From: Candidatus Woesearchaeota archaeon
GTDB taxonomy: Archaea > Nanobdellota > Nanobdellia > Woesearchaeales > GW2011-AR9
Assembly: GCA_018676855.1 (NCBI GenBank)
Contig: JABHDY010000004.1
Span: 28,972 to 92,971, forward strand
Length of the DNA: 64,000 nucleotides
Direction: 5' to 3'
The position numbers and the translations under genes were made by a program. Positions 17,844 to 39,420 of this stretch are shown here, piece by piece (positions within the stretch are counted from its first letter, which is position 1; each line of letters starts with the position of its first letter). Under the pieces are notes generated by a model that searched no databases, was not told the origin of the DNA, and saw only the letters and a program-made list of their open reading frames with translations.

Positions 17844-18830
17844 ATGAGATTCGCTAGATATTTATTGAAAAGGATATTAGTTCTTACAACAATAATAATA
17901 CTTCTTTCAGTTAATTCATTGTCTGAATCTCCTCCCGTATTAACTCATTCAATGGTAGAATTTGGAGATTACAATCCTGAAACGGGAAAAGCTGGCGATT
18001 TTATATTTGATAATTCCATAGTGGATAAAGTTTTTGAAGAATTTGGTGAAGAAGCTTATGATGGATTTGGAGGAACAAAAACATTACCACATTATACATT
18101 CTTTTTGTCATTAGATGCAAGAATTTATGCGCCAACTGATGGTGAAGTGGTAATGCTTACATATCAAGAAGATTGGAACGATTATGAGATTCTTGTTGGT
18201 CCAACGTCATTAAGCGATTGGAAACTTAATTATGATCATATTAGAAATGTCCCTGGACACATTGTTGAAGGATACATGATTCAAGCAGGTGAGTATATCG
18301 GAACTCCGGGAGTTTGGTACATGGACGTAGGATTCATTGAACTTACAATAATGAAAGATCTCAATAATGGATTTAATGAAAATTATTGTCCATATGATTT
18401 TTTTACTCCTGAACTTAAAGTATCATTTTCCCAGGGTTTGAATAACTTAATGACAGATTGGGAATCTTATAATAATGATATGACTATTTACGATGAAGAA
18501 AGTTATGTGTCTCCAGGATGTTTTGAGAATACAGTTGAAGAAAAGATATTTTCCGGAGAAAGTGATGGTGCAGTAAATGATGGCGTTGAAGATACTGCAT
18601 TTGAGAGTATATATGGATGTTATGATAATGATTGTAAAATGCAAGAAATACGTGATAATTGGCCTCAACAATGTCCAATCGGACAAGTACAGATTAATAA
18701 TAATTGTATTGATACGGGATTAAGAGAAGACGATGTTGAAGGATTGTATGACGTTTTAGATGTTTGGAATGATAACCAATTAAACTTATTACAGAAAATG
18801 TCTATGGTTGCATTTATTTTAAAAGATTAA
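17844..18830 (+). CDS. Secreted protein carrying the conserved C-terminal helical motif shared with the giant surface proteins.
   Basis: The signal peptide starts at ATG 17844 (MRFARYLLKRILVLTTIIILLSVNSLSES). The track ORF starts at 17736 and would overlap the upstream gene. The C-terminus reads ...GLYDVLDVWNDNQLNLLQKMSMVAFILKD. Confidence 0.6.
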   Translation: MRFARYLLKRILVLTTIIILLSVNSLSESPPVLTHSMVEFGDYNPETGKAGDFIFDNSIVDKVFEEFGEEAYDGFGGTKTLPHYTFFLSLDARIYAPTDGEVVMLTYQEDWNDYEILVGPTSLSDWKLNYDHIRNVPGHIVEGYMIQAGEYIGTPGVWYMDVGFIELTIMKDLNNGFNENYCPYDFFTPELKVSFSQGLNNLMTDWESYNNDMTIYDEESYVSPGCFENTVEEKIFSGESDGAVNDGVEDTAFESIYGCYDNDCKMQEIRDNWPQQCPIGQVQINNNCIDTGLREDDVEGLYDVLDVWNDNQLNLLQKMSMVAFILKD

Positions 18831-21820
18831 ACAGAATGTTGCGTACCACCAAGTTCAGTGTACGCTTGTTCAATTTCTTTATCGTTCCATGTTGTTTGAT
18901 CATGTAATACTTTTTGTATACCTTCATCAGAAACGCCCATTGCTCTTTCTTTAGATATCCATTCTTTCAGTTCATCAAAGTTTGACGCACCACCACGAGA
19001 TTTGAGGAAGTGGATAACAATAAATATAATAATTACCAAGATAATGAATGCGCCGCCACCAATAATGTAATATTTGTAATCGTCCCAAATTTTTACTGTT
19101 GAAACTGGTTCCTGAACTGAAGGTTGTGTAGGTTGCACGTACGGTGGTTGCATCTGTTGCGATATTGAAGCTGGTGCTGGACCAGGAACAACCGTTTGTG
19201 AACATGATTTTGAAAGTGTTGGTTTTAACGATGTTACGCCACAACTATGTTCATCAACACACGTTCTTTGCTGTTGACCTGCACCACATGTTGACCATGC
19301 TGAACATACCCATGATTGTGTACATGCTTCACATGAACGATTTTCTATACGTTGTGTTCTTCTTCCTCTTGAATCTGTACATGTACGTACTTGTTCCAAT
19401 GATGCGTCACAATATTCCCATGTTGAACAAGCCCAACTAGAACTACGTCGAGTACTTCCGCCAGTACTTGGACTTCCACTATCTCCAGCTTCTTGTATTA
19501 CAGTTGGATCAACAGGAGGAACGCATACATTTTCTGTACATACCTCACCTTCAAGAGTACAATCAGTATCTGCTTCACACTCTTCAGGTATTTTACACAA
19601 GTTAACTACACATTCTTCTTCTGGAATTACACACTCAGCATTTGTTGAACATAAAACGTCTTCAGTACACACACTTGGTTCACCGGTACATGTCCAACCA
19701 GTTTCAAGTGTACATGTTGCTGAACAACCATCATCAGCATCTTCATTACCATCATCGCACGCTTCGCCAGTTTCTTCAACATCATTTCCGCATACTGCTT
19801 CACTTCCTGGATCAATTGATGCAATGCATGCACCATCAGAACAACCATTTTCACATAACACAGGATCTTCTAAGTAAGGACCAGTACATATTTGTAACGC
19901 AGAATCTAAATAACATGTATCTTCTGTACATGGAGATTTACATATTTCATCTACACAGACATTATTTGTATCTTCACAAGGAACTTCATCTGAACATGAT
20001 TCAGGAACAAAACAAGCAACTGCACAATCTGAATCGTCACAGTCAACGTTTCCATCACCATCATCATCTAATTCGTCATCGCAGACAGTTTCAGTTACAG
20101 GAGCAACTGAACAAATACCTGCACCATGACACGTTTCACCATCTGCACAATCTTGAGGAGTTGCTAAATATTCGTTCGTACATGCCCTTGACGCAGACGC
20201 ACCATAACATATATTTTCTTCACATGAGACTCTACATTTACCTGCAACACACGTATCTTCACCACAATCATCATCTGATGTACATTCTGTTTCTTGGAAA
20301 CAAGCAACAGCGTCAGAACAATCACTATCATCACAATCAGTAGTACCATCAAGATCATTATCAGTTTCATCATCACAGACAGATTCAAACTGAGAACATA
20401 TTCCTGCACCGTGACATGTTTCACCATCTGCACAATTTTCAGGAGCTGATAAATAATCGCCTGAACAAACGCTTGACGCCGATTCACTATAACATGCATT
20501 TGCTACGCATGGAGTAAGGCATGTTCCTAAACAAACATCTCCTGCAAGACATTCATCGTTTGATGTACATTCTGTTTCTTCGTAACAAGCTGCATCGCCA
20601 GTACAATCAGTATCTAAACAATCAATATTTCCATCATTATCATTATCAGTTTCATCGTTACATATTTCTGGTGATGGTGGAACAAGACTTTCAACACAAA
20701 ATGAATATGTTGCACAATCACTATCATCACAGTCTACCAAATCGTCATTATCATTATCTTGACCATCTTCACAATGTTCAATATTTGTAAGTCTTCGTTC
20801 TAATAATTCTACATTGCCCAAACTTCCTTCAATTTCGTCAATAAGATTTTTGTAGTCCTCTTCAGATAATTGTAATAGGTTACATTCATTCGCAATTTCT
20901 TTAAATGAATCTGCTTCTTCTCGTAACACATTTAGAAGGAAATTCTTTAACAATGCAGTTTGTGACAGTAACGAATCAATATATTTCGAATCTCGTGGAT
21001 GAATTTCAAGCTGGAACAATTTATCTTTTGATAAATCATGTTCATCTTTCAGACTGTTTAATTTAGTTTGTAATTTATCTTGGTCACATTTGTCTTCATT
21101 TACACAAACATCATTAGTAAAACAGTCTGGGTCAGCACAGTCAATTAAACTATCATCATCATTATCAATTTCATTTGTACATGTTTTTTCAACATCACGC
21201 ACAATGACAAACGTATCGCCTACTGAACGTGCAAGGTCTCGCGGATTTTCTTCAAATGAAGTAATGTTAAATTCTGTTAGTGATAAGTTATACCAACCAG
21301 GACCCGCATTTTCAACGTTTAAATTTCCTATTTCAAACGTACCACTTTGAAGATTTTGATAATCAATAGTTGCATGTTCAAATTCAACAATAGTATTTTG
21401 ACATGAAACTGTTTTAAAATCGTCTGACCACTCAAGTGAACTTGTTACAGACTCATCACAAGTGTCAGAACCTAGACCTTCATGTTCCAATATAAACCGG
21501 ACAGCTGACGTTTCATCTCCAACAACAAGGTTGGCTTTAATTGGTATAGTAGCATCATCGCCCCTATACAAAACATTATCTTCCAAAAATAAACCTACCT
21601 TTGGAAGTGATAGTGGCGTAATTTCAGCAGGCTGAATTGCTTTTCCCACAAACGTATCTGTAAAGAACAAGAACATTGAAATTGCAATAAGTAACACTAC
21701 AGTAATGATAGCAATAATGTACGGTTTCCGTATCTCTCCCCGTTCTGCAAGTGGGTGAGGTTCCCAACTATGTGGAGGAAGTTTCTTGTACCGTTTCTTT
21801 ACCGTTTTTTGTTGTATCAT
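18827..21820 (-). CDS. Giant Cys/Asp-rich type I membrane surface protein, 997 aa. It has a cohesin-like N-domain, 3 tandem ~90-aa Cys-rich modules, a Myxococcus-type Cys repeat, TSP1-like repeats, a C-terminal TM helix and a cytoplasmic tail.
   Basis: The N-terminus has a basic stretch, a TM helix and the motif FFTDTFVGKAI. Repeated CDDETDNDxDGxxDCDDSDC...CADGETCHGAGICS modules are present. A Myxococcus-type repeat reads CGNDVEETGEACDDGNEDADDGCSATC. A TSR-like segment reads CSAWSTCGAGQQQRTC. The TM helix near the C-terminus reads YYIIGGGAFIILVIIIFIVIHF. Confidence 0.8.
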   Translation of the reverse strand: MIQQKTVKKRYKKLPPHSWEPHPLAERGEIRKPYIIAIITVVLLIAISMFLFFTDTFVGKAIQPAEITPLSLPKVGLFLEDNVLYRGDDATIPIKANLVVGDETSAVRFILEHEGLGSDTCDESVTSSLEWSDDFKTVSCQNTIVEFEHATIDYQNLQSGTFEIGNLNVENAGPGWYNLSLTEFNITSFEENPRDLARSVGDTFVIVRDVEKTCTNEIDNDDDSLIDCADPDCFTNDVCVNEDKCDQDKLQTKLNSLKDEHDLSKDKLFQLEIHPRDSKYIDSLLSQTALLKNFLLNVLREEADSFKEIANECNLLQLSEEDYKNLIDEIEGSLGNVELLERRLTNIEHCEDGQDNDNDDLVDCDDSDCATYSFCVESLVPPSPEICNDETDNDNDGNIDCLDTDCTGDAACYEETECTSNDECLAGDVCLGTCLTPCVANACYSESASSVCSGDYLSAPENCADGETCHGAGICSQFESVCDDETDNDLDGTTDCDDSDCSDAVACFQETECTSDDDCGEDTCVAGKCRVSCEENICYGASASRACTNEYLATPQDCADGETCHGAGICSVAPVTETVCDDELDDDGDGNVDCDDSDCAVACFVPESCSDEVPCEDTNNVCVDEICKSPCTEDTCYLDSALQICTGPYLEDPVLCENGCSDGACIASIDPGSEAVCGNDVEETGEACDDGNEDADDGCSATCTLETGWTCTGEPSVCTEDVLCSTNAECVIPEEECVVNLCKIPEECEADTDCTLEGEVCTENVCVPPVDPTVIQEAGDSGSPSTGGSTRRSSSWACSTWEYCDASLEQVRTCTDSRGRRTQRIENRSCEACTQSWVCSAWSTCGAGQQQRTCVDEHSCGVTSLKPTLSKSCSQTVVPGPAPASISQQMQPPYVQPTQPSVQEPVSTVKIWDDYKYYIIGGGAFIILVIIIFIVIHFLKSRGGASNFDELKEWISKERAMGVSDEGIQKVLHDQTTWNDKEIEQAYTELGGTQHSV
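19840..20660 (-). repeat. Three tandem ~270-nt intragenic repeats encoding the Cys-rich CxDExDNDxDG...CADGETCHGAGICS module.
   Basis: The protein-level repeats ...CNDETDNDNDGNIDCLDTDC..., ...CDDETDNDLDGTTDCDDSDC... and ...CDDELDDDGDGNVDCDDSDC... are each followed by a near-identical CADGETCHGAGICS. Nucleotide similarity between copies is visible. Confidence 0.6.
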
Positions 21821-24393
21821 TGTTCTTGAGTTTGAGCATATTCTGAAAGATAATATGCAATCTTAGTTAATTTAATAATCATTGAATCGTCTGATTTAAG
21901 TGTTGTATACACATTTTCAAGGAATTGTTTCTGATCTGAATCTTCTACTATAAGGACTGTAAGAGTTTCTGTTCCAAGTTCAATATCTTGTAATGCCACC
22001 ATTGGCGATTCTGAACATGAAGAATAATCCGTTATGGTTGGCCAACCATCAGGACATGATTGAATTGTATCGAAAAAGTTTCCACTTCCCATATTTTCTG
22101 AAGACCCTGGTGGAAATGTTGCACTAGGAGGGCAGGAAACGTCATCATTTGTATTGTCACAAAAAGTATTCCCATCAAATGAGTTGCCTGTTGTTCGTTC
22201 AAGTTTTACACCAAACATGTTATTGATAAAATTATTTCCTTCCAATATATTGTCAATACTAATGTAATCTTCAGAACCAGGAGTACCCTCCGGCCTGTCC
22301 CATGAAATAAATGCACCGTTGATAAAACCACTGACTTTACAGTTCTTTACAGTAACTGAAGATGCAAGTTGTAAACTTATTCCAGTACCCCTTTCACCAG
22401 GACCAGTAATTGAATGGCCCTGACAATCAATGACGATATTGTCTGCATCCGGTTCAAAACATCTATTATTATCATCCAAGTCTGTAACATCCAAATCTTT
22501 TGTTACTTTGTATACTGTTCCTTCTTCCCATCCATTTCTAGGAGTACAACTATCAAGAAGAACAATTTCTGAAGATTCTAATACGAAAAATTCTTTAAGT
22601 TCAATTGAAAGTCCGTCAATCAAATCTTGTGTTCTTACACTATCTTGTAATCTTTTGTACATCCGTGCAAGAAGATAATTCTCACCTTTTTCATTATCTA
22701 TTTCAACAAAACGAGTGTATTCCCCATTAATAATTGTCCAACCATCTTCAATTTGGCAGATATCACTACATCCATCATTATTTTCAGTGTTACCATCATC
22801 ACACTGTTCTGTACCTTCACGGATACTATTCCCACATACAAATTCTTGACATGTACCTTCACGACAGCCTGACAACCCTTCACATATATTATCTGTTTTT
22901 TCAAGTTGTAACAAATCATTACATGAATATGTTACTTGTGCACTATTATCATCTGAACAATGGCTCGTTATAAAACCAGAATCAGACGTTCCATCAACAG
23001 TACGAGTATATCGTATTTGACCAGGCGTATCTGTCTCTTGACATATTGCTGGCATTTCACATTGTAAATCATATCCACAATAATATCCATCAGGACATTC
23101 AACACCGTTACATAAAGATTTCAGTTCACAACCATTTTCTATTGAATTGTCAGCATTTTCCCAACCAGTACGACACGAACAAAGGCCGTCAATTAATGTC
23201 ATATGATCACTACATGGAGTGTCGTCACACACATTTCCTTCACCATCATTATCACTATCTTCTTGAAGAATATTTTCCTGTTGAGGACAATTATCTTCTG
23301 AATCCTGAACTCCATCATTATCGCTATCAACGACACATCTTCCATTATCTATACACATTGTATCTGTAGGACATGATTCTAAATCTCCCCAGAATAGTTC
23401 GTCATCAAACGTTTTACACGTTTGAAATAATGTAATATCATCGCCTGAAACGCACCGTTTCTGAGCAAATTCTGTACACTCTTCTGTTCCGACAAATTGT
23501 GCAATGTTAAGACAAATAGCATTTTCTGTACAGTCATCATCGTTACAGTCTGTCCAACCGTCACCATCATTATCTTGGAGATCATTACATAGAATTTCAA
23601 TAACTTCTGGAACTTCTAAAGTGCACGTTGACGAACAACCATCACCATCAACTGTATTTCCATCATCACATTCTTCAAGAGCTTCTGTAACACCATTACT
23701 ACATAGTGCATCTGAAGGACCTTCTTCATCTGCAGCTGCCAAAACAGTAACAGTAGTTTCTATTGGTGAAACTAAACTTTGAGCAGAAGGATTGTTTAAA
23801 TCATACATAGTAAAGGAAGTAAACTCAAAATTTATAGGAACACTTTCGGTAGGTTCTTCATCAACCATTACAGTGATATATCCTAAATCCATTTTTCCTG
23901 AAATTGCATTTCCACAATCATTTGTTTCAGAACATAGGCCAGCAAACGTAACAGAGATAGTATCGTCAGTAGATTTAATATAATTAACAATAGTAAGATC
24001 GATACCCTCCCTTTCATAAAAGAAATTATCATGAACAGGTTCAATAATTCTAGAATAGTCAACTTTTGTTGAATCATAATCGTGTTTTAACGCAAACTGA
24101 AAAGCAACAGATTTTTTTCCTACTGGTAAAGAAACTTGAATAGGAATAGTATATTCTGTCACGCCAGGTTCAACTTCTATCGTACCGCCTAAAACTGCAG
24201 CTTTTCCAACACCAACTTCGGTAGTGAACTCGATAGCTTTTCCAACAAACGTGTCTGTGAAGAATAATAATCCCGCTAAACCTAGAAGTAAAACAACTGT
24301 AATAGCTGCTATGATTAAAGGTTTTTTATTTTTACCAGTACTTTGAGATACTGTTTTTGGGGTTCCCCGTGACACGTTCTGTTTTATTTTCAT
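21817..24393 (-). CDS. Giant secreted Cys-rich surface protein, 858 aa. It has a cohesin-like N-domain, Myxococcus-type Cys repeats, TSP type-3-like Ca-binding repeats, a parallel beta-helix and the conserved C-terminal helical motif.
   Basis: The N-terminal motif reads KKPLIIAAITVVLLLGLAGLLFFTDTFVGKAI. Myxococcus-type repeats include CDDGNTVDGDGCSSTC and CDDGNTENNDGCSDIC. The TSP3-like repeat reads DSDNDGVQDSEDNCPQ...DSDNDGEGNVCDD. The beta-helix repeats include NCKVSGFINGAFIS...GNNFINNMFGVKL...GNSFDGNTFCDN. The C-terminal motif reads ...FLENVYTTLKSDDSMIIKLTKIAYYLSEYAQ. It overlaps the downstream gene by 4 nt. Confidence 0.8.
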   Translation of the reverse strand: MKIKQNVSRGTPKTVSQSTGKNKKPLIIAAITVVLLLGLAGLLFFTDTFVGKAIEFTTEVGVGKAAVLGGTIEVEPGVTEYTIPIQVSLPVGKKSVAFQFALKHDYDSTKVDYSRIIEPVHDNFFYEREGIDLTIVNYIKSTDDTISVTFAGLCSETNDCGNAISGKMDLGYITVMVDEEPTESVPINFEFTSFTMYDLNNPSAQSLVSPIETTVTVLAAADEEGPSDALCSNGVTEALEECDDGNTVDGDGCSSTCTLEVPEVIEILCNDLQDNDGDGWTDCNDDDCTENAICLNIAQFVGTEECTEFAQKRCVSGDDITLFQTCKTFDDELFWGDLESCPTDTMCIDNGRCVVDSDNDGVQDSEDNCPQQENILQEDSDNDGEGNVCDDTPCSDHMTLIDGLCSCRTGWENADNSIENGCELKSLCNGVECPDGYYCGYDLQCEMPAICQETDTPGQIRYTRTVDGTSDSGFITSHCSDDNSAQVTYSCNDLLQLEKTDNICEGLSGCREGTCQEFVCGNSIREGTEQCDDGNTENNDGCSDICQIEDGWTIINGEYTRFVEIDNEKGENYLLARMYKRLQDSVRTQDLIDGLSIELKEFFVLESSEIVLLDSCTPRNGWEEGTVYKVTKDLDVTDLDDNNRCFEPDADNIVIDCQGHSITGPGERGTGISLQLASSVTVKNCKVSGFINGAFISWDRPEGTPGSEDYISIDNILEGNNFINNMFGVKLERTTGNSFDGNTFCDNTNDDVSCPPSATFPPGSSENMGSGNFFDTIQSCPDGWPTITDYSSCSESPMVALQDIELGTETLTVLIVEDSDQKQFLENVYTTLKSDDSMIIKLTKIAYYLSEYAQTQEQ

Positions 24394-24408
24394 TTCAAAT
24401 TATTATAA

Positions 24409-25311: not shown

Positions 25312-25323
25312 TTTTCACCTCTA

Positions 25324-28703: not shown

Positions 28704-28803
28704 TAATCTAGTTCACCTTTTTTTAGTATAAAGAATACCTTTTCGTTTATATACCTATCGATTTTCTACGTGTATAAAAAAGTTAAAAAAAAGCGGTTAA
28801 CTC

Positions 28804-29727
28804 TTAAGGAGAATACTGATTTCCTGAACCATTATTACCTTTAGAACGTGACCTAAAAAAGAACACAAGGATAAGTATTGCAACAAGTAATAAAATAATG
28901 CCGGCAACATAATACCATGTGGAAACACCTTCTGAAACGTCTTTATCGTCTTCAACTACGTCCCTCGTAGTAGAAGGAATTACTGATGGAGCAGTTCTTC
29001 CCGAAACTGTACCGCACACTTTCGTTTCTGCAGGTTGTGGAAATTGTGTAACTGAACTAATGGTTCCAGCAGACAACTGTGCATCACAATCGTCTGATCT
29101 TTGACATGAACGTGTTTGTATTTCATTTGAACATGAACTCCACGACGTACAGTCCCATACATACACACATGCAGGAAGGGTTTGCGGTTGATCAGGCAGT
29201 GTACCCGCCACGCACGTTTTCTGTTCAGTTTTTGTTAACTCATCAGTATCACATTCGTTAACATCGGTACATGTACGTGTTTGTGTTGCAGCAACACAAG
29301 ATAACCATTCGTCACAGTCCCATCGTTGATCACATGTAATGACTGATGATGAAGTACTAACGTCATGCCGCGTTACACCCCACGATTCATATTCAAGAGT
29401 ATCAATAAGTGTATCGTCAACATAAAAAGCAATGGTATTACCATCTTCACCATGTACACGAAGGTAATTAGTAACATCATTTCCGTACTTTCCCGTGCAC
29501 GGATTTGTATCGCACGTTACAATAGAAATTGATGAGGAATATTCAACACCGTTAACAGACGCAACCACATTTTCTGGAACGTCAGAATCTAAGTCCCACG
29601 TTACACGACCATAAAACTGATGATGTTCGATTGACGGTGGTTCTGCCGCAATTACCATTACGGGAACAAGAAGTGTACATAATAATATCCACAATAATAT
29701 GTTCAGTTTCATTCTACAAATACCCAA
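28804..29727 (-). CDS. Type I membrane protein, 307 aa, with thrombospondin type-1-like (WxC...WSxC...QTRxC) repeats and a C-terminal TM helix.
   Basis: The signal reads MKLNILLWILLCTLLVPVMVIAA. The repeats read CDQRWDCDEWLSCVAATQTRTCTDVNEC and CVYVWDCTSWSSCSNEIQTRSCQRSDDC. The TM helix reads YYVAGIILLLVAILILVFFF, followed by a basic/Gly tail. Confidence 0.7.
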   Translation of the reverse strand: MGICRMKLNILLWILLCTLLVPVMVIAAEPPSIEHHQFYGRVTWDLDSDVPENVVASVNGVEYSSSISIVTCDTNPCTGKYGNDVTNYLRVHGEDGNTIAFYVDDTLIDTLEYESWGVTRHDVSTSSSVITCDQRWDCDEWLSCVAATQTRTCTDVNECDTDELTKTEQKTCVAGTLPDQPQTLPACVYVWDCTSWSSCSNEIQTRSCQRSDDCDAQLSAGTISSVTQFPQPAETKVCGTVSGRTAPSVIPSTTRDVVEDDKDVSEGVSTWYYVAGIILLLVAILILVFFFRSRSKGNNGSGNQYSP

Positions 29728-31052
29728 TATGCTTTACCTGGTTCTAACATAGTTATACCAGATTCTTTAACATCATTATCTTTAATAACATACATTTCGG
29801 TAATTTCTAATTCTTCACCGACGTTCAAATCTTCAATTGACATTCGTTCAAATCCCGGAATGCCGATAAGGTTCCAACCCTCTTGTACAGATACAAGTTC
29901 GTTAAACGGATTATGTGAAGCAGTAAAATAGTCGTTACATTCTTCAGTAAAAGAAAATGTATCTACACCGTCTTTTAACCTAATGTAATATCCTTTATCT
30001 TGTTTCAAGTTAGTAATCTCTGACGTACCACTCCATAAGTCAGGAATTGTACGTGCTAAAACCTGTTCAGTTTCATCCCATGAATATATTCCCTTAACTT
30101 TATCTTCAAAGTCGGTACTTCCTATCACACTTCTTCCAACATCGCAGGAAGGTGAAAATGCTTGCATGCGTAAACCGCCAGTAAAGTTAAATGTTATTTC
30201 GTACTGATCGTACGTTGCCTGTTCAACTTTTGTTAATGTCATAAGTGGAAAATTGTCTTCTTGTAACGTTGCAACGATTGATCCAACAGAAAAGAGAAAG
30301 TCACGTTCCGTTTCTTCACCATTAACATCGGCAATAACTGTTATTCGATACACGCCAACATCGTCAGGTGTAAATGTAAGGCCTTTTAATACATGGGCAG
30401 TAGAGGGTTCGTCTTCAGTGATATCATAAAATTCTGAATCAGAAAGTTGTGTACCGTCATTCTTATACGCAGTTACAGTTGCAAGTGGAGTACTTTCAAC
30501 TTTTACGTACCGTTCAATAACGTCATCAGGGGAAACAGCTGACAGTTCAGATTCAACAGGTGTGCCATCAATGTCTAACAATGAAATTATTGCTGCGGAA
30601 GGTTCATCATATACAATGTTTCGTACAGTTAATTCGCTCCCGTCGTACGACAGTTCAATGTCAGGAACATTATCAAAATCTAAATAGATGTTTCCTGAAG
30701 TACGTAGGCCATTACCAAGAAGACCTTCAAACAATCTTGTTCCGCTTAAACTGACACTATAATTGATCATACTATAATCGGTATCTTCAAACGGAAATAC
30801 CTCAATATGATATTCACGTTGAACTCCCTGTGAAGGAACTAAAGAAATGTCCCATGAAGTAACGAACTGGACAGAAATTGATGCTGATTCTGTCACGTTA
30901 AGATCTATCGGACCAATAGGTGGCGTTGTATATGCTTGACCTGTCGGCCGTAAGAATACTGCTAGTAATACGACAACAACAAGTAATGCTGCACCAATAA
31001 GTACTTTAGGTACAATGTTTTTCATTTTGCTGTTTGATTTTTTTGTTGTCAT
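29709..31052 (-). CDS. Secreted or membrane-anchored protein, 447 aa, function unknown.
   Basis: The N-terminus has a basic stretch, the TM helix VLIGAALLVVVVLLAVFL and a possible cleavage site TGQA|Y. The body is beta-rich. It overlaps the flanking genes by 19 nt and 4 nt. Confidence 0.7.
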   Translation of the reverse strand: MTTKKSNSKMKNIVPKVLIGAALLVVVVLLAVFLRPTGQAYTTPPIGPIDLNVTESASISVQFVTSWDISLVPSQGVQREYHIEVFPFEDTDYSMINYSVSLSGTRLFEGLLGNGLRTSGNIYLDFDNVPDIELSYDGSELTVRNIVYDEPSAAIISLLDIDGTPVESELSAVSPDDVIERYVKVESTPLATVTAYKNDGTQLSDSEFYDITEDEPSTAHVLKGLTFTPDDVGVYRITVIADVNGEETERDFLFSVGSIVATLQEDNFPLMTLTKVEQATYDQYEITFNFTGGLRMQAFSPSCDVGRSVIGSTDFEDKVKGIYSWDETEQVLARTIPDLWSGTSEITNLKQDKGYYIRLKDGVDTFSFTEECNDYFTASHNPFNELVSVQEGWNLIGIPGFERMSIEDLNVGEELEITEMYVIKDNDVKESGITMLEPGKAYWVFVE

Positions 31053-34000
31053 TTTTGTATATGGATAGTTGGAATGTCAGCATCTAACACGTGAATCTTT
31101 ACCACATTACCGTTAGAGAGTAAAACGTGCCTTTCTTCATCAACGGGAAGGTTGCTAACATAAATTAGTTTACCCTCTTCAGTTATTGTAACTTTAACAA
31201 AGTCCGATATGCTAGGACTTTCATCGACGGATAAGCTATACACATGGCCGTCAATGTTTGTCATGAACGATGTTGGTTGTTGTTCTTCAGTAACGTTAAA
31301 TCCTATAAGTGTTAATAATGAACGTTGTAAAGGTTCAATGTCAAGATCTATTCTAAAATCTTCACTCTCGCCAACAAACTTTTTTTGAAACGCAAGCACA
31401 CCATTATCAAAAACTATTGTTCCTGCTTCTCTTCCTTCCGCTTCTGATGTTGTCGTGTTCATTTGTATGGTACTAAATGAACTCGCGCGTGGTAATTCTA
31501 CTAGCTGGAATGTATCTAATGTTTGTGAACCCTCTAATTCGAACCACGTATCTTCCCAGAAAATTGCGGGATTTCGATTATTTTGAAGATTATCTGTAAT
31601 TGCTAACCAATCAAACGTTTCTGTATGATCGTCTGTAAGATTCATAGTATGTTTAAACGTGACAACTTTTTGTCCTTCAGTATTTTTCCCATGGTATTGA
31701 ACAAGGACTCCAGAGATATAACTTGAATATAATACGTCTCTATCAAGAGTGAGGTCAATTTCATTTGAACTACATAAACCAACAAAATCAACTAACGTAG
31801 CCGCTGCAGCACTGTCACAAATTTCATACGTATTGCTTCCAATCTGAATATTATTTCGCTGACCGTTAACACCTGCAAGTAATGTTGCTGAAAAATTTTC
31901 TCGTGGAGAGAATGTTCCCGTTGAAATTGCTGCAAGTTCAAGCTCACTCGTAACGTCTGATAAAGAGATGCCCGTAAATGTAATCTCACGAACATCACCG
32001 GTCTGAACTTTAGCTTCAATCCTTCGTTCACCAAGATCAAAGACAAGATCAAGACCGCTCATTGTTGGAGCAATAGGGTTAGAACCGTCAACATTTGTAA
32101 TACGCATTTTACTTAATTCAAACCCTTCAGCCTCTGTTCCTGTCCAAGGATCAGCATATGTTAAAAGATAATATTGATCGTCTAATCCGAATGCTAACCG
32201 TTTTCCTTTTACTAGTGGAAGGATAAAATTAGTATCAGTAAATTCGTGTGTGTATGGACCATTTCGTAAATTACTATAAAAGAATACATGAGCATATTTA
32301 TTGAATGTATTTAGTGCTCCAGATATACCACCATTCGTAAAATCTGAGTAATAGAACAAGACTTTACCATTATGTTCAAAGTTAGGCTTCGCGTCACTAA
32401 AATTTAATTCAACTAGAACACCATTATAATTTATTTGCATTATATCTTTAAGGATGTTAATGTCACTCGGATCAATTTTAATTTTCCTATAGGCTTCACT
32501 ATCACGGAAATTTAATATATCAACTTGACTGTACGTGCTAATATATGTTTCAAACTCGTTCTCTAAATCGACCTGTTTCGTCGTTGTTGTTTTTGCACTA
32601 AAATCGTAATTAAGTTCCGGTTCAAGATCAAGTTTAATATTAATTTGTTTTCCTAAAGGCAAATTAAAGACAACTTCTGATTGGTCTCCCTCGGCCACAT
32701 ATTCAGGAAAACCGGGTTCAGTAATGTCTCTCAATTTTAATGTCGTAAGGTCAAGATAATTTGATAAACTATTCATCCTTATCACATAATCATGTCCCTC
32801 ATAACTAAGGGCCATACGTTTTCCCGCAACCATGTTTGTTGCAAAAATTGTTGCAAATTCATTTTGAATATCTGTCACGTCTCTCCTATATAACACACTA
32901 CCTTCTTTTGTTTGGTCTGGTGCAGGTTGTTCATACCAGAAAAGAACATTTTCTAGTGTGCTTGCTTTTTTATTTTGTATATTAAGTATTTGTGATTCCC
33001 TGTCACATACAGTCAGAGCTGAAAGGACTGGAGGATCGTTACTACATACACTAACAAATCCAAGATTGTTCGTTGCAACATCAAGAATGATGTCTTTTGA
33101 AAAAGATTCTTCATATGTTTGTGCAAGATCAACTTGATCCTCACCGACAGTTGTTCCTATCCTAATCTCTTCTTGCGTTTTTGTTAATCTAAAAATAACA
33201 CCCCCATCTCCAACAACTATTGGACGGGCAACGAAAAAAATCTCCTCTGTTTCTTGTTCATCAATGAAAAAATTACCTCCAAAAAAATTACCAACTATCG
33301 GATTAGGAGTTACATCCGTAGTAGCAGTTGAACCGCCGAAACTTCTCCCATCAATAGTAAAAATGACATCAGATTCATCACCAAATACGCCCATTGTATG
33401 CTCAACACCATTAGAGACAAATGTTTGAGAATTGTCAGATAGAAGAACCCCCGTCCAAGCCATGTTAGTTTGATCAAAATCGATAACTGTTGTTACTGAG
33501 AACAGAATTGATTTGTCTAAGTAGGGAGATGCCAGAAGAACTGATAAATATGCATCTGTTATTGTATCACCATCAAGATCTAATGGAAATTGTTCCTGTG
33601 AAAACGCATACTTGTCTTCCGGATCAACTGTTAATGTAATGTCAAACGCTGGACCTGCTGATGACACACTAAGTGTAACAGCTCCCGCTTCAGTAGGATT
33701 GGCCATTTTTATTTGAAATATTGTATCTCCGTACCTAAAGAAAGACTTTTGAGTTGTAATTGATAGAAATCCAAAGTATCCTTGTTTCTCAATTATATCA
33801 ACAGGATCTGCTGCGGTACTTCCACCATTCGGAAGAACCCCTATCCCTTCGAGAACGAAACCATTGAAAATTCCTTGAGGATTCTCAAATTCTTCTTTTG
33901 GAACATCAAATAACCATTTATTATTTTTACAGAACATTGATGATACTGAATCATCACATACGTGCCATTGAGTTGCATCGCAAAAATAAGAATTATCGTC

Positions 34001-34681
34001 TTCATAAATACCAAAAAAGTTAGAATCACAAACATGCCATTGATTTTCTGAACATAAAAATTTGTTACCTACATCCGATGGAAGATTTTGATAGATTCCC
34101 GGAATTTGTGTGTCGTCACATTCAACAGTAATTGTTGCATGTACATCTGGATCAATGTTATTAGAGACACAAAGTTCTTTTTTAGTAGATACATACTTAG
34201 AAAACAAAGAGCCAACACTATAACAGTATGTTCCAGAAGTTAAAGAAGAAGCTTGATATTCTTCAAATGTCATCTGTGGCTTTGGACCAATGCAAAAATC
34301 GCCTCGTTGTGGACAACAATATCCAGGCGCAGTTCCCCCAGATGCTAAATTAACTCCATCACCATCAATGGCATTTTGAAGAGTATATTTATGTGTTTTT
34401 TCAATACCTCTTTGAGAACAAGAATCTTCACCAAAAACAGCTTCAACAACAGCCAATGGTTCATTAGTACTTCCCCAATAATCCCCTACTGGTGCAGGTT
34501 GTCCCGCTTGCCATATAGCCTGACCAACAACCCCATCTTTAACAAATGGATACAGAACAGCAACTGCAACTACTAAAACAATTAAACCAACCCATAATGC
34601 AGTAAGTTTCTTTTTATGTTCAGAATGATGCTCACTAGGAGAAGAACGTTTCAGTTTAGCACTATCTTTTTTAACCATCAA
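31049..34681 (-). CDS. Giant secreted or membrane-anchored protein, 1210 aa, function unknown.
   Basis: The N-terminal TM helix reads LTALWVGLIVLVVAVAVLYPFVKDGVVGQAI, sharing the G-x-A-[IV] junction. An N-terminal Cys-rich segment reads CxxNxxHVCD.. repeated. The rest is a long beta-rich body with no recognised motif. Confidence 0.8.
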   Translation of the reverse strand: MMVKKDSAKLKRSSPSEHHSEHKKKLTALWVGLIVLVVAVAVLYPFVKDGVVGQAIWQAGQPAPVGDYWGSTNEPLAVVEAVFGEDSCSQRGIEKTHKYTLQNAIDGDGVNLASGGTAPGYCCPQRGDFCIGPKPQMTFEEYQASSLTSGTYCYSVGSLFSKYVSTKKELCVSNNIDPDVHATITVECDDTQIPGIYQNLPSDVGNKFLCSENQWHVCDSNFFGIYEDDNSYFCDATQWHVCDDSVSSMFCKNNKWLFDVPKEEFENPQGIFNGFVLEGIGVLPNGGSTAADPVDIIEKQGYFGFLSITTQKSFFRYGDTIFQIKMANPTEAGAVTLSVSSAGPAFDITLTVDPEDKYAFSQEQFPLDLDGDTITDAYLSVLLASPYLDKSILFSVTTVIDFDQTNMAWTGVLLSDNSQTFVSNGVEHTMGVFGDESDVIFTIDGRSFGGSTATTDVTPNPIVGNFFGGNFFIDEQETEEIFFVARPIVVGDGGVIFRLTKTQEEIRIGTTVGEDQVDLAQTYEESFSKDIILDVATNNLGFVSVCSNDPPVLSALTVCDRESQILNIQNKKASTLENVLFWYEQPAPDQTKEGSVLYRRDVTDIQNEFATIFATNMVAGKRMALSYEGHDYVIRMNSLSNYLDLTTLKLRDITEPGFPEYVAEGDQSEVVFNLPLGKQINIKLDLEPELNYDFSAKTTTTKQVDLENEFETYISTYSQVDILNFRDSEAYRKIKIDPSDINILKDIMQINYNGVLVELNFSDAKPNFEHNGKVLFYYSDFTNGGISGALNTFNKYAHVFFYSNLRNGPYTHEFTDTNFILPLVKGKRLAFGLDDQYYLLTYADPWTGTEAEGFELSKMRITNVDGSNPIAPTMSGLDLVFDLGERRIEAKVQTGDVREITFTGISLSDVTSELELAAISTGTFSPRENFSATLLAGVNGQRNNIQIGSNTYEICDSAAAATLVDFVGLCSSNEIDLTLDRDVLYSSYISGVLVQYHGKNTEGQKVVTFKHTMNLTDDHTETFDWLAITDNLQNNRNPAIFWEDTWFELEGSQTLDTFQLVELPRASSFSTIQMNTTTSEAEGREAGTIVFDNGVLAFQKKFVGESEDFRIDLDIEPLQRSLLTLIGFNVTEEQQPTSFMTNIDGHVYSLSVDESPSISDFVKVTITEEGKLIYVSNLPVDEERHVLLSNGNVVKIHVLDADIPTIHIQK

Positions 34682-34758
34682 TACACACTCTTTTATTGTA
34701 GAGAACTAATTTGTTTCTCTTTATATACTTTACTATTACACGAACGTAATAGAATTGA

Positions 34759-35883
34759 CTATCGTGACCGAGAAGGAGATGCAGATTCTTTCTTAAGGTA
34801 CGCAACTATAGACATTTTTTCTAACAAACTTTGTGAACTTTTTTTCCACATAGAATTTATTGAAGTGAGAAGTGTATCGTCGGTAACACGGACATCAATA
34901 CAACGCGTATTTTCTTTAATGGGTAATTTTCCAACGTCACAATTTTCAAACTTACACATTGGATCTCGTAAACATGCAACATCATCACAGTCAACTTTAC
35001 CATTACCATCATTATCTATTCTATCACCACATTTTTCAAAAACTAAACATTCAGAAGATCCCGTTACTGCCCAACAGATAGAATTTCTCACTATCTTCCG
35101 CGCATCAGTATTATACAATTCCCATTTATAATCGTCCATAAAGAATCCAAGATGAACAAACTTGCCAGGATTTCTACCAAAATCTGTAACGCCACTCTCT
35201 AACGCAAAACCTGAAATTGAGGAAGGTAATGCCCTTGACTCTGCAGTCGAACCAGAATGTGAATTTCCAGGACCAAACAACGCAACATATTCGGTTTCAT
35301 AAATGTTATTCGTATTAATGTACCCAACATAAAGAGGTTTACGAGTTGCTTGTAATCTCACTTCGTCGCTAAATTCTTTCATGATATCGTGCGTAGTATC
35401 AACTGAACCGATAGACGTTTTAAAATTGTCATCAGCGCCCACACCGTTCGTTATTTCTAAAGAACTAGAAGTATATGCACGATGCGCAACACTAATTATA
35501 GGTACACCATTATTCCTGTACGCTTCTTTAAGTATATTATCTCTTACTTTAAGTACATTTGAACATGCCAGATAATGACCAGCACAAACAACAGCACTAT
35601 ACCCATTAAATGAAGTAACTTTTCCACCACCTAATGCATACAATTCGCCGCCAACGAGGTACATACGGGTAACATCAAACCCTTCATCAACCAAATATTC
35701 TCGTATATAATCTGTATATGTACATCCCTGATTATAACAAATAAAAGCAAGATTGATTTGTCCTCCCCGTGAAACGGCCATACCAGTGACATTATTAGAA
35801 AAAGAAAAAAAGATGAAAGAGAAAGCAATAACTGTGATTGCTATACCTACAACTAACCAAATGCGGTTTCTATCAACACTCAT
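34759..35883 (-). CDS. Membrane-anchored surface protein, 374 aa, with a CxDxxDNDGxGxxDC module and the conserved C-terminal helical motif; the first gene of the cluster.
   Basis: The N-terminal TM helix reads RIWLVVGIAITVIAFSFIFFSF. The Cys module reads CGDRIDNDGNGKVDCDDVAC. The C-terminus reads TLLTSINSMWKKSSQSLLEKMSIVAYLKKE followed by an 8-aa tail. Confidence 0.7.
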   Translation of the reverse strand: MSVDRNRIWLVVGIAITVIAFSFIFFSFSNNVTGMAVSRGGQINLAFICYNQGCTYTDYIREYLVDEGFDVTRMYLVGGELYALGGGKVTSFNGYSAVVCAGHYLACSNVLKVRDNILKEAYRNNGVPIISVAHRAYTSSSLEITNGVGADDNFKTSIGSVDTTHDIMKEFSDEVRLQATRKPLYVGYINTNNIYETEYVALFGPGNSHSGSTAESRALPSSISGFALESGVTDFGRNPGKFVHLGFFMDDYKWELYNTDARKIVRNSICWAVTGSSECLVFEKCGDRIDNDGNGKVDCDDVACLRDPMCKFENCDVGKLPIKENTRCIDVRVTDDTLLTSINSMWKKSSQSLLEKMSIVAYLKKESASPSRSR

Positions 35884-35950
35884 TTTTTGTACACTCTTAC
35901 TAAACAGAAATAGTATTTCACTTATATATTTGTCGATATTAAAAAAAGTG

Positions 35951-38099: not shown

Positions 38100-38233
38100 T
38101 ATTATCCACCTCTCACCTATGAGAAAATAAAATACTCTAGTATTTAAAATCTTCGCTTTGTGTTTGCTACCAAATACAAAACATTTATATATTATGTTTT
38201 TTTAGTTAGTCTTAAGTTCGAGGAAAAAAAAAG

Positions 38234-38794: not shown

Positions 38795-38816
38795 GTAATA
38801 TATTGTTTCAAATGAG

Positions 38817-39407: not shown

Positions 39408-39420
39408 GTTTTGATACACA

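What the first reader, a model, noticed from the sequence alone, without database searches (positions are those of the whole stretch)
18827..35883. 17-kb, nine-gene co-directional operon of giant Cys-rich secreted surface proteins.
Nine consecutive minus-strand genes encode proteins from 300 to 1210 aa. Four junctions overlap (ATGA overlaps at 21817-21820, 26406-26409 and 31049-31052; a 19-nt overlap at 29709-29727). Every product has a signal peptide or an N-terminal TM anchor. Most are built from Cys/Asp-rich disulfide and Ca-binding-like modules. Devoting over a quarter of a 64-kb window to one surface-protein operon is extraordinary in an apparently small AT-rich archaeal genome. It suggests a dedicated cell-surface assembly or host-attachment apparatus.
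Basis: partly seen in the sequence, partly recalled or inferred. Interest (0 to 1): 0.85.

Follow-up and report, generated by a model that had tools for sequence, protein, structure and literature searches.

The report
Woesearchaeal cohesin-dockerin surface-protein gene island
A tiny, probably host-dependent marine archaeon devotes about 18 kb to ten secreted proteins that carry the same plug-and-socket modules (cohesin and dockerin) bacteria use to build cellulosomes, plus a new tail tag and a new giant protein, which most likely snap together into an enzyme-free cell-surface attachment structure.

Summary
The nine minus-strand genes are real and sit exactly where reported. They belong to a Woesearchaeales (DPANN) archaeon. 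All nine products have an N-terminal hydrophobic leader, and seven are Cys-rich (3-8% against about 1% background).

It is probably not one operon. Three TATA-like boxes lie 46-51 nt upstream of P9, P8 and P5, which suggests three units: P9 | P8-P7-P6 | P5-P1. A tenth, convergent gene (P10) belongs to the set. Two of the four reported junctions depend on unlikely TTG starts.

P8-P7-P6 is a conserved, translationally coupled trio. The P8 family has only 79 representatives among 1.84 billion proteins, and its core is three 205-aa beta repeats with no matching solved structure.

About half of related genomes carry a similar island after sepF, so it is typical of the lineage rather than extraordinary.

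Best reading: an enzyme-free cohesin-dockerin surface or attachment assembly. Function is inferred.

The parts
35950..36033 (-). tRNA-Ser(GCU). It marks the upstream boundary of the island; sepF (36128-36514) lies just beyond it.
   Evidence: ARAGORN and Rfam; SepF by Pfam.
35922..35929 (-). TATA-like box ATATATAA, 46 nt upstream of the P9 start codon.
   Evidence: One of 8 minus-strand matches in the 64-kb window.
34759..35883 (-). P9, 374 aa. Architecture: long leader (..TGMAV), a domain of unknown fold, one acidic double-disulfide repeat, then the C-terminal tail (34762-34899).
34721..34728 (-). TATA-like box GTATATAA, 50 nt upstream of the P8 ATG. It heads the P8-P7-P6 unit.
   Evidence: Similar boxes lie 45-50 nt upstream of P8 homologues in L007, L025, L053 and L061.
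31049..34678 (-). P8, 1209 aa. Architecture: leader (..VGQAI), a Cys-containing N-terminal region (16 Cys within aa 1-250), then a Cys-free beta-rich body. The conserved core, aa ~505-1190, is three homologous ~205-aa repeats.
   Evidence: - Family size: 79 representatives in 1.84e9 proteins.
- AF2 model: mean pLDDT 86.5.
- Repeats: hhalign 99/97/95%.
29709..31052 (-). P7, 447 aa. Architecture: leader (..TGQAY), an Ig-like middle region, and a conserved C-terminal GWNLIG...PGKAYWV domain. ATGA overlaps join it to P8 on one side and P6 on the other.
28804..29712 (-). P6, 302 aa from the ATG at 29712. Architecture: ordinary signal peptide, a beta domain, two W-x-C-x2-W..C..Q-x-R-x-C modules, a Pro/Thr linker, a C-terminal TM anchor and a short basic tail.
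   Evidence: 39% identical to its L007 homologue.
28776..28792 (-). T-runs (T8-AAC-T6) directly after the P6 stop codon. This is an archaeal terminator-like signal.
   Evidence: Read from the sequence.
28747..28754 (-). TATA-like box GTATATAA, 51 nt upstream of P5. An AGGTGA box lies 14 nt upstream of the ATG.
26406..28703 (-). P5, 765 aa. Architecture: leader (..FGKAI), a ~430-aa domain of unknown fold, a Pro/Glu linker, two myxo_disulf repeats, a Cys-rich domain shared with P4, one acidic disulfide repeat, then the tail (26409-26522).
25324..26391 (-). P4, 355 aa. Architecture: conserved leader, cohesin domain (25792-26232), a Cys-rich domain, then a type-I dockerin with two F-hand repeats (25327-25536).
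   Evidence: - Cohesin by sequence: family profile against the NagJ cohesin, E 1e-5.
- Dockerin: family profile against PDB dockerins, E 1.5e-13.
- Pfam Dockerin_1 on P4 alone is only E 0.024.
24409..25311 (-). P3, 300 aa. Architecture: ordinary signal peptide, a Ser/Thr-rich beta domain, two 45-aa Cys repeats, then the tail (24412-24543).
21817..24393 (-). P2, 858 aa. Architecture: conserved leader, cohesin domain (23728-24231), myxo_disulf repeat, acidic disulfide and TSP3-like Cys-rich region, second myxo_disulf repeat, right-handed beta-helix (about 22069-22446), then the tail (21820-21957). A 569-aa deletion allele exists in other samples.
18827..21820 (-). P1, 997 aa. Architecture: conserved leader, cohesin domain (21194-21634), five acidic double-disulfide repeats that include three 285-nt tandem units, one myxo_disulf repeat, two W-C modules, a TM anchor (18983-19081), then a ~50-aa cytoplasmic tail.
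   Evidence: The C-terminal 200 aa are 33-44% identical to proteins in 11 related loci.
17844..18830 (+). P10, 328 aa. It is convergent with P1, and their stop codons overlap in TTAA. Architecture: signal peptide, a degenerate M23/LytM-like domain, then the same C-terminal tail (18714-18827). It belongs to the set.

Best explanation
**What it is**
This is the lineage-typical cell-surface gene island of a Woesearchaeales (DPANN) archaeon. It sits directly after sepF and tRNA-Ser.

**Gene organisation**
It has ten genes, probably in three co-directional transcription units plus one convergent gene:
- P9 alone.
- A conserved, translationally coupled trio P8-P7-P6.
- P5-P4-P3-P2-P1.
- The convergent P10.

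**Export (inferred)**
All products are exported through Sec.
- P3, P6 and P10 use ordinary signal peptides.
- The others use a lineage-specific long leader: a basic N-region, a 20-24-residue hydrophobic core, then (V/A/T)-G-(K/Q/M)-A, which fits a signal-peptidase site.

**Modules**
Outside the cell, the Cys/Asp-rich modules (acidic double-disulfide repeats, myxo-type Cys repeats, W-C modules) are presumably stabilised by disulfides and Ca2+; this is inferred.

**Retention at the surface**
Each protein outside P7 and P8 has exactly one C-terminal 'address':
- a membrane anchor (P1, P6);
- a type-I dockerin (P4);
- a previously undescribed ~40-aa helical tail (P2, P3, P5, P9, P10).

P1, P2 and P4 each start with a cohesin socket.

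**Assembly (inferred)**
- The dockerin of P4 can plug into the cohesin of membrane-anchored P1, or of P2. This would give a cellulosome-like scaffold with no detectable enzymes.
- The tail is proposed to be a second docking or retention code.
- The trio would form a membrane-anchored structure in the manner of SlaA/SlaB: P6 as the stalk, P7 as an Ig-like adaptor, and the giant three-repeat beta protein P8 as the distal element.

**Likely function (inferred)**
Adhesion to a host cell or a particle, or envelope building.

**Shown versus inferred**
- Shown: gene structure, module identities, synteny, and fast divergence.
- Inferred: export, processing, who binds whom, and the biological role.
For: **Organism and conserved position**
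- A SepF-anchored search returned 80 Woesearchaeota/Nanoarchaeota loci.
- The DUF11 protein plus SepF is conserved in 77 of them.
- About 25 of 46 loci with at least 6 kb downstream carry arrays of large, leader-bearing proteins with 4-9% Cys.

**Cohesin**
- A 17-member family profile hits the C. perfringens NagJ cohesin at E 1e-5 over its full length.
- 4 of 17 members hit Pfam Cohesin, best E 9e-8.
- The P1 and P2 N-domains align to P4 at E 8e-33 and 1e-16.

**Dockerin**
- P4 has two F-hand repeats.
- The family profile hits solved type-I dockerins at E 1.5e-13.

**Tail**
- It occurs five times in the window, always 4-12 residues from the stop codon.
- It occurs in 14 proteins from 10 sources (the window and nine related loci), always C-terminal.
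- It is absent from Pfam, NCBIfam and the PDB.

**Co-occurrence**
- The cohesin domain co-occurs with dockerin, half-dockerin or tail modules in 8 of 11 loci, against 5 of 35 loci without it (p = 5.6e-4; table).

**Leader**
- The G-[KQMRN]-A motif follows the hydrophobic core in 40 of 128 proteins, against about 0.004 expected per protein.
- The leader is conserved even in distant homologues.

**Trio**
- P8-P7-P6 recur in order with 4-nt overlaps in L007 and L088, and in order in L030 and L053.
- They are only 27-39% identical where SepF is 80% identical.
- Some P8 relatives carry LamG, PKD, Big_9 or cadherin-like domains.

**Transcription units**
- TATA-like boxes lie 46, 50 and 51 nt upstream of P9, P8 and P5. 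There is a T-run after P6. The box upstream of P8 is conserved in relatives.

**Module shuffling**
- A P2 allele lacks 867 nt between two myxo_disulf repeats.
Against: - No binding, localisation or expression data exist.
- P4 alone is below the Pfam threshold for Dockerin_1 (E 0.024). Its dockerin was modelled at pLDDT of about 28.
- There is one dockerin for three cohesins in the window. Other partners, if any, lie elsewhere in the genome or are the tails, which is untested.
- The tail shows no profile similarity to the dockerin-derived tails of relatives (hhalign probability 0.1%). Its docking role rests only on its position and on being mutually exclusive with the other addresses.
- Signal-peptide cleavage was judged from hydropathy and motif alone, because no dedicated predictor was available.
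- The 22-24-residue hydrophobic core could equally be an uncleaved signal anchor.
- The promoter assignment rests on motif position alone.
- The co-occurrence statistic is not corrected for phylogeny, and each locus shows only a 10-kb slice.
Confidence: 0.55

Rival explanations
1. The island, or at least P8-P7-P6, encodes the cell envelope itself. On this view it is a multi-component S-layer or sheath. P8 would be the lattice protein and P6 the membrane stalk, as with SlaA/SlaB in Sulfolobales. The Cys-rich proteins would be accessory wall proteins rather than attachment factors.
For: - P8 is large, Cys-poor, beta-rich and built of tandem repeats.
- Its small partner has a signal peptide and a C-terminal TM anchor.
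- The genes are adjacent and translationally coupled. slaA and slaB are likewise adjacent and transcribed as a bicistronic operon, and SlaB is anchored by a C-terminal TM helix (PMC5744192).
- Fast sequence divergence is typical of S-layer proteins.
Against: - The P8 family is patchy. It occurs in only about 6 of 46 related loci, with 79 representatives worldwide. Other relatives carry a different 1125-1240-aa anchored protein at the same site.
- The window holds other S-layer-like candidates. One is the 938-aa protein at 53866-56682, with a signal peptide, many N-x-S/T sites and a C-terminal anchor. Another is the widely conserved DUF11 protein.
- No sequence or fold match to SlaA or SlaB was found.
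Confidence: 0.25
2. It is a true cellulosome-like extracellular enzyme complex for degrading polymers. On this view cohesin-dockerin pairs organise hydrolases or lyases on the cell surface.
For: - Cohesin and dockerin modules are present.
- P2 has a right-handed beta-helix (Beta_helix 26.4 bits against a cutoff of 25.9; weak NosD hit), a fold common in polysaccharide lyases.
- P10 has a sub-threshold M23-like region (E 0.014).
Against: - No catalytic family reaches threshold in any of the ten proteins in Pfam or NCBIfam.
- The only dockerin is on a protein with no enzyme-like domain.
- The M23-like region of P10 lacks the H-x3-D and H-x-H zinc ligands, as read from the sequence.
- No carbohydrate-binding modules were detected.
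Confidence: 0.08
3. It is merely a cluster of independently acting, fast-evolving adhesins or decoys. On this view tandem duplication and module shuffling put them next to each other, and there is no physical assembly.
For: - Paralogous modules are shared at the DNA level between genes.
- An allele was created by recombination between repeats.
- Gene content beyond the trio is not one-to-one between genomes.
- There are several promoter-like boxes.
Against: - Cohesin and dockerin are dedicated protein-protein docking modules, and they co-occur with the other address modules across genomes.
- The trio keeps its order and its start/stop overlaps despite only 27-39% identity.
Confidence: 0.12

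Closest known systems
Non-cellulosomal cohesin-dockerin modules of archaea and bacteria. Examples are the Archaeoglobus fulgidus cohesin (PDB 2xdh) and the C. perfringens NagJ/NagH cohesin-dockerin pair.
   Same: - The family profile matches the NagJ cohesin.
- The dockerin has two F-hand Ca-loop/helix repeats and matches solved type-I dockerins.
- There are no cellulases.
   Different: - Here the cohesin always directly follows a conserved lineage-specific leader.
- It sits in a conserved island after sepF.
- It is combined with Cys-rich acidic repeats, TM anchors, a new C-terminal tail and the P8-P7-P6 trio.
- Binding partners are untested.
Bacterial cellulosome (anchoring scaffoldin, adaptor scaffoldin, dockerin-bearing enzymes).
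   Same: The logic matches: a membrane- or wall-anchored cohesin protein (P1), a protein with both a cohesin and a dockerin that resembles an adaptor scaffoldin (P4), and further subunits carrying a C-terminal address.
   Different: - No enzymes or CBMs were detected.
- There is one cohesin per protein rather than arrays.
- Anchoring is by a TM helix rather than SLH or sortase.
- Most subunits carry the new tail, not a dockerin.
Sulfolobales two-component S-layer, SlaA/SlaB.
   Same: A large outer protein and a smaller protein with a C-terminal TM anchor are encoded by adjacent co-transcribed genes (PMC5744192). P8 and P6 fit that layout.
   Different: - There is a third protein (P7) between them.
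- No sequence or fold similarity to SlaA or SlaB was found.
- P6 has W-C disulfide modules and a Pro/Thr linker rather than a coiled coil.
- The family is patchy within the order.
Giant or multidomain surface proteins of ultra-small symbionts. One example is the Omnitrophota giant ORFs with dockerin, LamG and discoidin domains, proposed as adhesins (PMC10066038). Another, recalled from memory, is the SPEARE proteins of Nanohaloarchaeota.
   Same: - A reduced genome invests heavily in large secreted proteins.
- Adhesion-type domains are present (LamG, PKD and cadherin-like in P8 relatives).
- An attachment role is proposed.
   Different: - Here the investment is spread over ten modular genes with a docking code, rather than one giant ORF.
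- No protease or nuclease domains are present.
Domain I of class II fusion proteins (flavivirus E, HAP2, archaeal Fusexin1) and the Methanosarcina S-layer DUF1608 domain.
   Different: - Only a single small domain matches.
- No elongated domain II with fusion loops, no domain III and no stem plus C-terminal TM were identified.
- Foldseek finds no global match (TM about 0.1).

Membership tests
Cohesin domain (PF00963-type) | Nine-stranded jelly-roll beta-sandwich of about 140 aa with the cohesin topology. | tested here: met
   [not shown]
Cohesin domain (PF00963-type) | Sequence-profile similarity to recognised cohesins. | tested here: met
   The family profile (17 sequences) hits the NagJ cohesin at E 1.1e-5 over its full length. 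4 of 17 members hit Pfam Cohesin, best E 9.4e-8. The three window copies on their own give no Pfam hit.
Type-I dockerin (PF00404) | Two tandem F-hand repeats, each a Ca-binding loop D-x-[DN]-x-[DN]-G followed by a helix, within about 70 aa. | tested here: met
   P4 has DADGDGTLNLADAILV and DADCSGTVSLDDAILI, 34 residues apart. The family profile hits solved dockerins at E 1.5e-13 across the whole module. Pfam on P4 alone is sub-threshold (E 0.024, 15.3 bits against 22.9).
Cohesin-dockerin system | Ca-dependent binding between the dockerin and a cognate cohesin. | not testable with these tools
   This needs pull-down, ITC or multimer modelling. In the single-chain P4 model the dockerin had pLDDT of about 28.
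Cellulosome | Dockerin-bearing carbohydrate-active enzymes and CBMs. | tested here: not met
   No catalytic family or CBM reaches threshold in any of the ten proteins.
Single operon (one transcript) | One promoter upstream of the first gene and no internal promoters or terminators. | tested here: not met
   Three of the eight minus-strand [AG]TATATAA boxes lie 46, 50 and 51 nt upstream of P9, P8 and P5. A T8/T6 run follows P6. The box upstream of P8 is conserved in relatives. This is motif evidence only, without RNA data.
SlaA/SlaB-type two-component S-layer | Adjacent co-transcribed genes for a large outer protein and a smaller protein anchored by a C-terminal TM helix. | tested here: met
   P8 (1209 aa) and P6 (302 aa, C-terminal TM) lie in one overlapping gene string. 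The family feature is taken from PMC5744192.
SlaA/SlaB-type two-component S-layer | Homology to SlaA or SlaB, and lattice formation. | tested here: not met
   [not shown]
Class II fusogens / fusexins | Three-domain ectodomain (DI sandwich, elongated DII with fusion loop, Ig-like DIII), followed by a stem and a C-terminal TM. | tested here: not met
   [not shown]
Acidic double-disulfide repeat (NF033662) and myxo Cys-rich acidic repeat (TIGR02232 / DUF4215) | Score above the curated cutoff. | tested here: met
   - NF033662: P1 scores 67 bits (cutoff 41) with 5 copies.
- TIGR02232: P2 scores 73.3 bits and P5 43.2 bits (cutoff 20.8).
- Single NF033662 copies in P2, P5 and P9 are below the cutoff.
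Known C-terminal sorting signals (PGF-CTERM, PEF-CTERM, GG_III-CTERM and similar) | Match of the shared tail to a curated model. | tested here: not met
   No NCBIfam or Pfam model matches the tail. There is no PDB match. The tail is amphipathic and helix-like, not a TM segment.

The most novel reading that the evidence does not exclude
The island encodes a self-assembling, enzyme-free 'adhesosome'. This would be a host-attachment organelle of a DPANN archaeon wired by cohesin-dockerin pairs plus a second, entirely new docking code (the 40-aa tail). Its distal element would be P8, built from three repeats whose sandwich module resembles domain I of class II fusogens and of fusexins. P8 would make the membrane-proximal contact with the host cell, or even promote bridging or fusion with it.
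Probability: 0.08. Interest if true: 0.9.

Novelty: new variant of a known kind. Interest (0 to 1): 0.58.

Why it matters
**The open question.** DPANN archaea are thought to live attached to other cells. Outside a few cultivated Nanobdellales and Nanohaloarchaea, the molecules that mediate contact are unknown.

**What this locus offers.** It gives a concrete, testable parts list for Woesearchaeales:
- three cohesin sockets;
- one dockerin plug;
- two membrane anchors;
- a new C-terminal tag shared by five proteins;
- a lineage-specific export leader;
- a conserved trio built around a structurally new giant protein.

**Prior reports.** No paper in the searched library links cohesin-dockerin modules to DPANN surface biology.

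**Practical use.**
- The modules are small enough for direct binding assays.
- The island lies at a conserved position next to sepF, so it is easy to find and compare in other genomes.
- The leader and tail motifs could improve annotation of the many 'hypothetical' secreted proteins of this lineage.

Tried and rejected
- **Tail as a degenerate dockerin.** Relatives carry C-termini made of a half dockerin followed by a helix (alignment A4). These match true dockerins over the first F-hand (hhalign 90%). The window's tail profile shows no similarity to them (probability 0.1%). Rejected as unsupported.
- **Word-indexed database search with the tail profile.** It returned only one 82-aa hit from 90 candidates, so the prefilter is too weak for a 40-aa query. 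The wider distribution of the tail remains unknown.
- **Foldseek of the P8 model against the PDB.** It gave only meaningless alignments (TM about 0.1). The afdb50 library was unavailable.
- **P1 cytoplasmic tail related to the N-terminus of ORF 40024-40557.** I suspected this by eye. BLASTP finds nothing.
- **P8 looked up with its TTG start.** It is not on record, because gene callers start it one codon later.
- **The alternative 1125-1240-aa plus 306-aa gene pair found after sepF in five relatives.** It is a different family with only a trace match to the window's 938-aa protein. It is not a P8 homologue.
- **Mobile-element or viral origin.** No integrase or phage genes are present, the position is conserved, and the composition resembles the rest of the window. 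Not pursued.
- **Sigma-70 promoter scanner.** Not used, because the organism is archaeal. A TATA-box motif count was used instead.
- **Literature searches for prior descriptions.** Searches on Woesearchaeota surface proteins and on cohesin/dockerin in DPANN found nothing specific.
Full report
**1. Observation**

The nine minus-strand ORFs exist at exactly the reported coordinates, with lengths of 300-1210 aa. I call them P1 (18827-21820) to P9 (34759-35883).
- The window has about 35% GC.
- It is archaeal: it encodes ribosomal protein S6e, FtsZ, SepF, an archaeal-type ProRS and IleRS.
- tRNA-Ser lies directly upstream of P9.
- All nine products have an N-terminal hydrophobic segment. P1 and P6 also have a C-terminal one.
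- Seven are Cys-rich (3.2-7.8%) against about 0-1.5% in the other proteins of the window. P7 (0.4%) and P8 (1.3%) are not.

The genes are real.
- Identical proteins are called on 23 contigs from several marine metagenome samples.
- Diverged homologues exist.

Two junction claims need correction.
- 26406-26409 reads TTGA. The likelier P4 start is the ATG at 26391, just downstream of a GGAGG box.
- The 19-nt overlap disappears if P6 starts at the ATG at 29712. That start makes a third true ATGA overlap, with the P7 stop codon.
- Gene callers chose these same starts.

**2. Organism and genomic setting**

I used SepF (80% identical to its closest fetched relative) as an anchor.
- 80 loci came back from GTDB species representatives. 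The informatively titled records are named Woesearchaeota, Nanoarchaeota or Nanoarchaeia; the rest carry generic or apparently erroneous titles ('archaeon', 'uncultured Methanosarcinales archaeon').
- The DUF11 protein just upstream of sepF is conserved in 77 of the 80 loci.
- Among 46 loci with at least 6 kb downstream of sepF, about 25 carry a co-directional array of large proteins with N-terminal leaders and 4-9% Cys.

The island is therefore a lineage-typical feature at a conserved position. It is not a singular extravagance of this genome, although this copy is among the richest.

**3. Transcription units**

- On the minus strand the motif [AG]TATATAA occurs eight times in 64 kb. Three of those lie 46, 50 and 51 nt upstream of the start codons of P9, P8 and P5.
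- A T8-AAC-T6 run follows the P6 stop. Shine-Dalgarno-like boxes precede P5, P4 and P3.
- A similar box sits 45-50 nt upstream of the P8 homologues in L007, L025, L053 and L061.

I infer three units: P9 | P8-P7-P6 | P5-P4-P3-P2-P1. This rests on motifs, not RNA data.

**4. A tenth gene**

A regular expression for the C-terminal motif I saw in several products matched exactly five times in all six frames of the window.
- Each match lies 4-12 residues from a stop codon.
- The five proteins are P2, P3, P5, P9 and the convergent plus-strand gene 17844-18830, which I call P10.
- P10 has a signal peptide. Its stop codon overlaps that of P1 in TTAA.

**5. Modules**

*Known repeats.* NCBIfam recognises the acidic double-disulfide repeat (five copies in P1, above cutoff) and the myxo-type Cys-rich acidic repeat in P2 and P5. 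Pfam gives DUF4215, a weak TSP_3 hit and a right-handed beta-helix in P2.

*Cohesin.* P1, P2 and P4 share an N-terminal region at E 8e-33 and 1e-16. This is a cohesin domain.
- An AlphaFold2 model of P4 from a six-sequence alignment is poor overall (mean pLDDT 50). Residues 60-200, however, form a beta-sandwich at pLDDT 70-80.
- A profile of 17 family members from the window and related loci hits the Clostridium perfringens NagJ cohesin at E 1e-5 over its full length.
- Four members hit Pfam Cohesin directly.

*Dockerin.* The C-terminus of P4 carries two F-hand repeats.
- On its own it is sub-threshold for Pfam Dockerin_1 (E 0.024).
- A profile of it plus six equivalent C-termini from related islands matches solved type-I dockerins at E 1.5e-13.

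**6. Leader and tail**

*Leader.* Seven of the nine proteins share a long leader: a basic region, a 20-24-residue hydrophobic core, then (V/A/T)-G-(K/Q/M)-A.
- It is conserved at the DNA level between P1, P2 and P4.
- It is conserved in the only distant database homologues of P4.
- Across the related loci the motif follows the hydrophobic core in 40 of 128 proteins, where about 0.004 per protein is expected.
- It fits a signal-peptidase site, with small residues at positions -3 and -1. An uncleaved anchor cannot be excluded.
- P3, P6 and P10 have ordinary short signal peptides.

*Tail.* The consensus is ..LLxxIxxxLxxxxxNxLQK(I/V/M)SxIAxxL...
- It occurs at the extreme C-terminus of 14 proteins from 10 sources: the window and nine related loci.
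- It has no counterpart in Pfam, NCBIfam or PDB sequences.
- It is not detectably related to the 'half-dockerin' tails that some relatives carry.

*One address per protein.* Leaving aside P7 and P8, every protein has exactly one C-terminal address:
- a TM anchor (P1, P6);
- a dockerin (P4);
- the tail (P2, P3, P5, P9, P10).

Cohesin-bearing loci are enriched for dockerin, half-dockerin or tail modules: 8 of 11 against 5 of 35, p = 5.6e-4, not corrected for phylogeny.

**7. The conserved trio**

- P8 had only one distant hit in the word-indexed search of 5.8 billion proteins.
- An exhaustive HMMER search of 1.84 billion representatives found 79 relatives, 27 of them at E < 1e-30. They are conserved over residues ~505-1190 and are 800-2969 aa long.
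- P8, P7 and P6 homologues occur in that order in L007, L030, L053 and L088. The 4-nt overlaps are kept in L007 and L088.
- They are only 27-39% identical where SepF is 80% identical. These are fast-evolving proteins held in a fixed arrangement.

An AlphaFold2 model of P8 residues 500-1210, built from a 32-sequence alignment, is confident (mean pLDDT 86.5).
- The region consists of three homologous ~205-aa beta-rich repeats (hhalign 99, 97 and 95%).
- Foldseek finds no global match.
- Some relatives add LamG, PKD, Big_9 or cadherin-like domains at the N-terminus.

P7 has an Ig-like middle region (E 6e-5 to a three-module titin construct, 6fwx; native titin Ig domains score only E 0.17-0.29) and a conserved C-terminal domain. 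P6 is a type I membrane protein with two four-Cys W-C modules and a Pro/Thr linker.

**8. Interpretation**

The best-supported reading is a modular surface assembly.
- Anchors (P1, P6) hold sockets and stalks at the membrane.
- The dockerin of P4 can plug into a cohesin of P1 or P2.
- The tail is a second, new address.
- The trio forms a membrane-anchored structure with P8 outermost. This is laid out like SlaA/SlaB, whose genes are also adjacent and co-transcribed and whose small subunit is anchored by a C-terminal helix (PMC5744192).
- No enzyme domain reaches threshold, so this is not a cellulosome.

An adhesive role fits the domain types, the fast divergence and the presumed episymbiotic lifestyle of DPANN archaea. 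It is still an inference.

The main rival is that the trio is simply the S-layer of this lineage. The patchy distribution of P8 and the presence of other S-layer-like candidates in the window argue against that, but do not exclude it.

**9. Population variation**

The population is clonal. Six contigs from different samples are 100% identical over the island.

The one exception is an in-frame 867-nt deletion in P2 (858 to 569 aa). It lies between two copies of the myxo_disulf repeat, at 22763 and 23630. This shows repeat-mediated module loss in the wild.

**10. Verdict**

- The claims of a single operon and of an extraordinary feature are not.
- The idea of a surface assembly is strengthened and made specific.
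- I found no paper linking cohesin-dockerin modules to DPANN surface biology.
- I class the finding as a new variant of a known kind, namely a non-cellulosomal cohesin-dockerin surface system. Its new components are the tail, the leader motif and the P8 architecture.
- Interest is moderate to high for specialists in archaeal cell surfaces and symbiosis.

Noticed in passing
window 21817-24393 (P2); deletion between about 22763 and 23630: Contigs of the same otherwise 100%-identical population from other samples (L002, L003) carry a P2 allele that lacks 867 nt in frame (858 to 569 aa). The breakpoints lie in two copies of the myxo_disulf repeat that share a 17-nt overlap. This is repeat-mediated module loss in a surface protein.
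   Followed up: yes
window 17844-18830 (+), P10: This convergent gene has a signal peptide and the shared C-terminal tail. Its middle part gives a sub-threshold Peptidase_M23 hit (E 0.014). Read by eye, it lacks the H-x3-D and H-x-H zinc ligands, so it looks like a degenerate LytM-like domain. Its stop codon overlaps that of P1 in the palindrome TTAA.
   Followed up: partly
window 36678-46071; also L007 and L088: A wider neighbourhood is conserved. It runs: T2SSE-type ATPase (41501-43795), a 738-aa membrane protein, three paralogous ~190-aa membrane proteins (38234-39987), a DUF11 surface protein (36678-38099, present in 77 of 80 related loci), then sepF, tRNA-Ser and the island. This could be a type-IV-pilus-like machine next to the surface island. 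Whether the two are functionally linked is unknown.
   Followed up: partly
L007 17100-20566; L015, L020, L039: Relatives carry a third kind of C-terminal module. It has one dockerin F-hand (GDLDGSGxVNxxDVxWI) followed by ..NLNxLIKAMxxNWS and ends in WS. It matches true dockerins only over the first repeat (hhalign 90%). It looks like a half-degenerated dockerin.
   Followed up: partly
L007 8960-9876; L088 9260-9939 and 17429-17995: Small NTP_transf_2 / HEPN-type gene pairs (toxin-antitoxin-like) are inserted between sepF and the P8 homologue in two relatives, and within the island in one of them. The window has none at that position.
   Followed up: no
L009, L014, L022, L049, L074 (downstream of sepF): Five relatives, some of them from Saanich Inlet bins, lack the island. 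At the same site they have instead a convergent 1125-1240-aa protein with a signal peptide and a C-terminal anchor, plus a conserved 306-aa partner. This is a different family and possibly an alternative envelope protein.
   Followed up: partly
window 53866-61415: A second group of surface proteins lies here:
- a 938-aa protein with a signal peptide, many N-x-S/T sites, Big_3_3/Big_13 domains and a C-terminal anchor, which makes it an S-layer-like candidate;
- a 367-aa protein and a 770-aa protein with PKD, Big_9 and cadherin-like domains.

Together with the island, roughly 40% of the window encodes exported proteins.
   Followed up: no
window 18983-18830 (P1 residues ~947-997) and homologues in 11 related loci: The most conserved part of P1 (33-44% identity across loci) is its C-terminal end: W-C modules, the TM helix and a ~50-aa cytoplasmic helical tail. 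This hints that the anchor has a conserved intracellular partner. No family match was found.
   Followed up: partly
window 13972-15594 (-): This 540-aa protein has a lipobox-like N-terminus (..LFIVGCS..). A ..AGQAY.. motif resembling the island's leader motif follows shortly after it. It has no Pfam hit.
   Followed up: no
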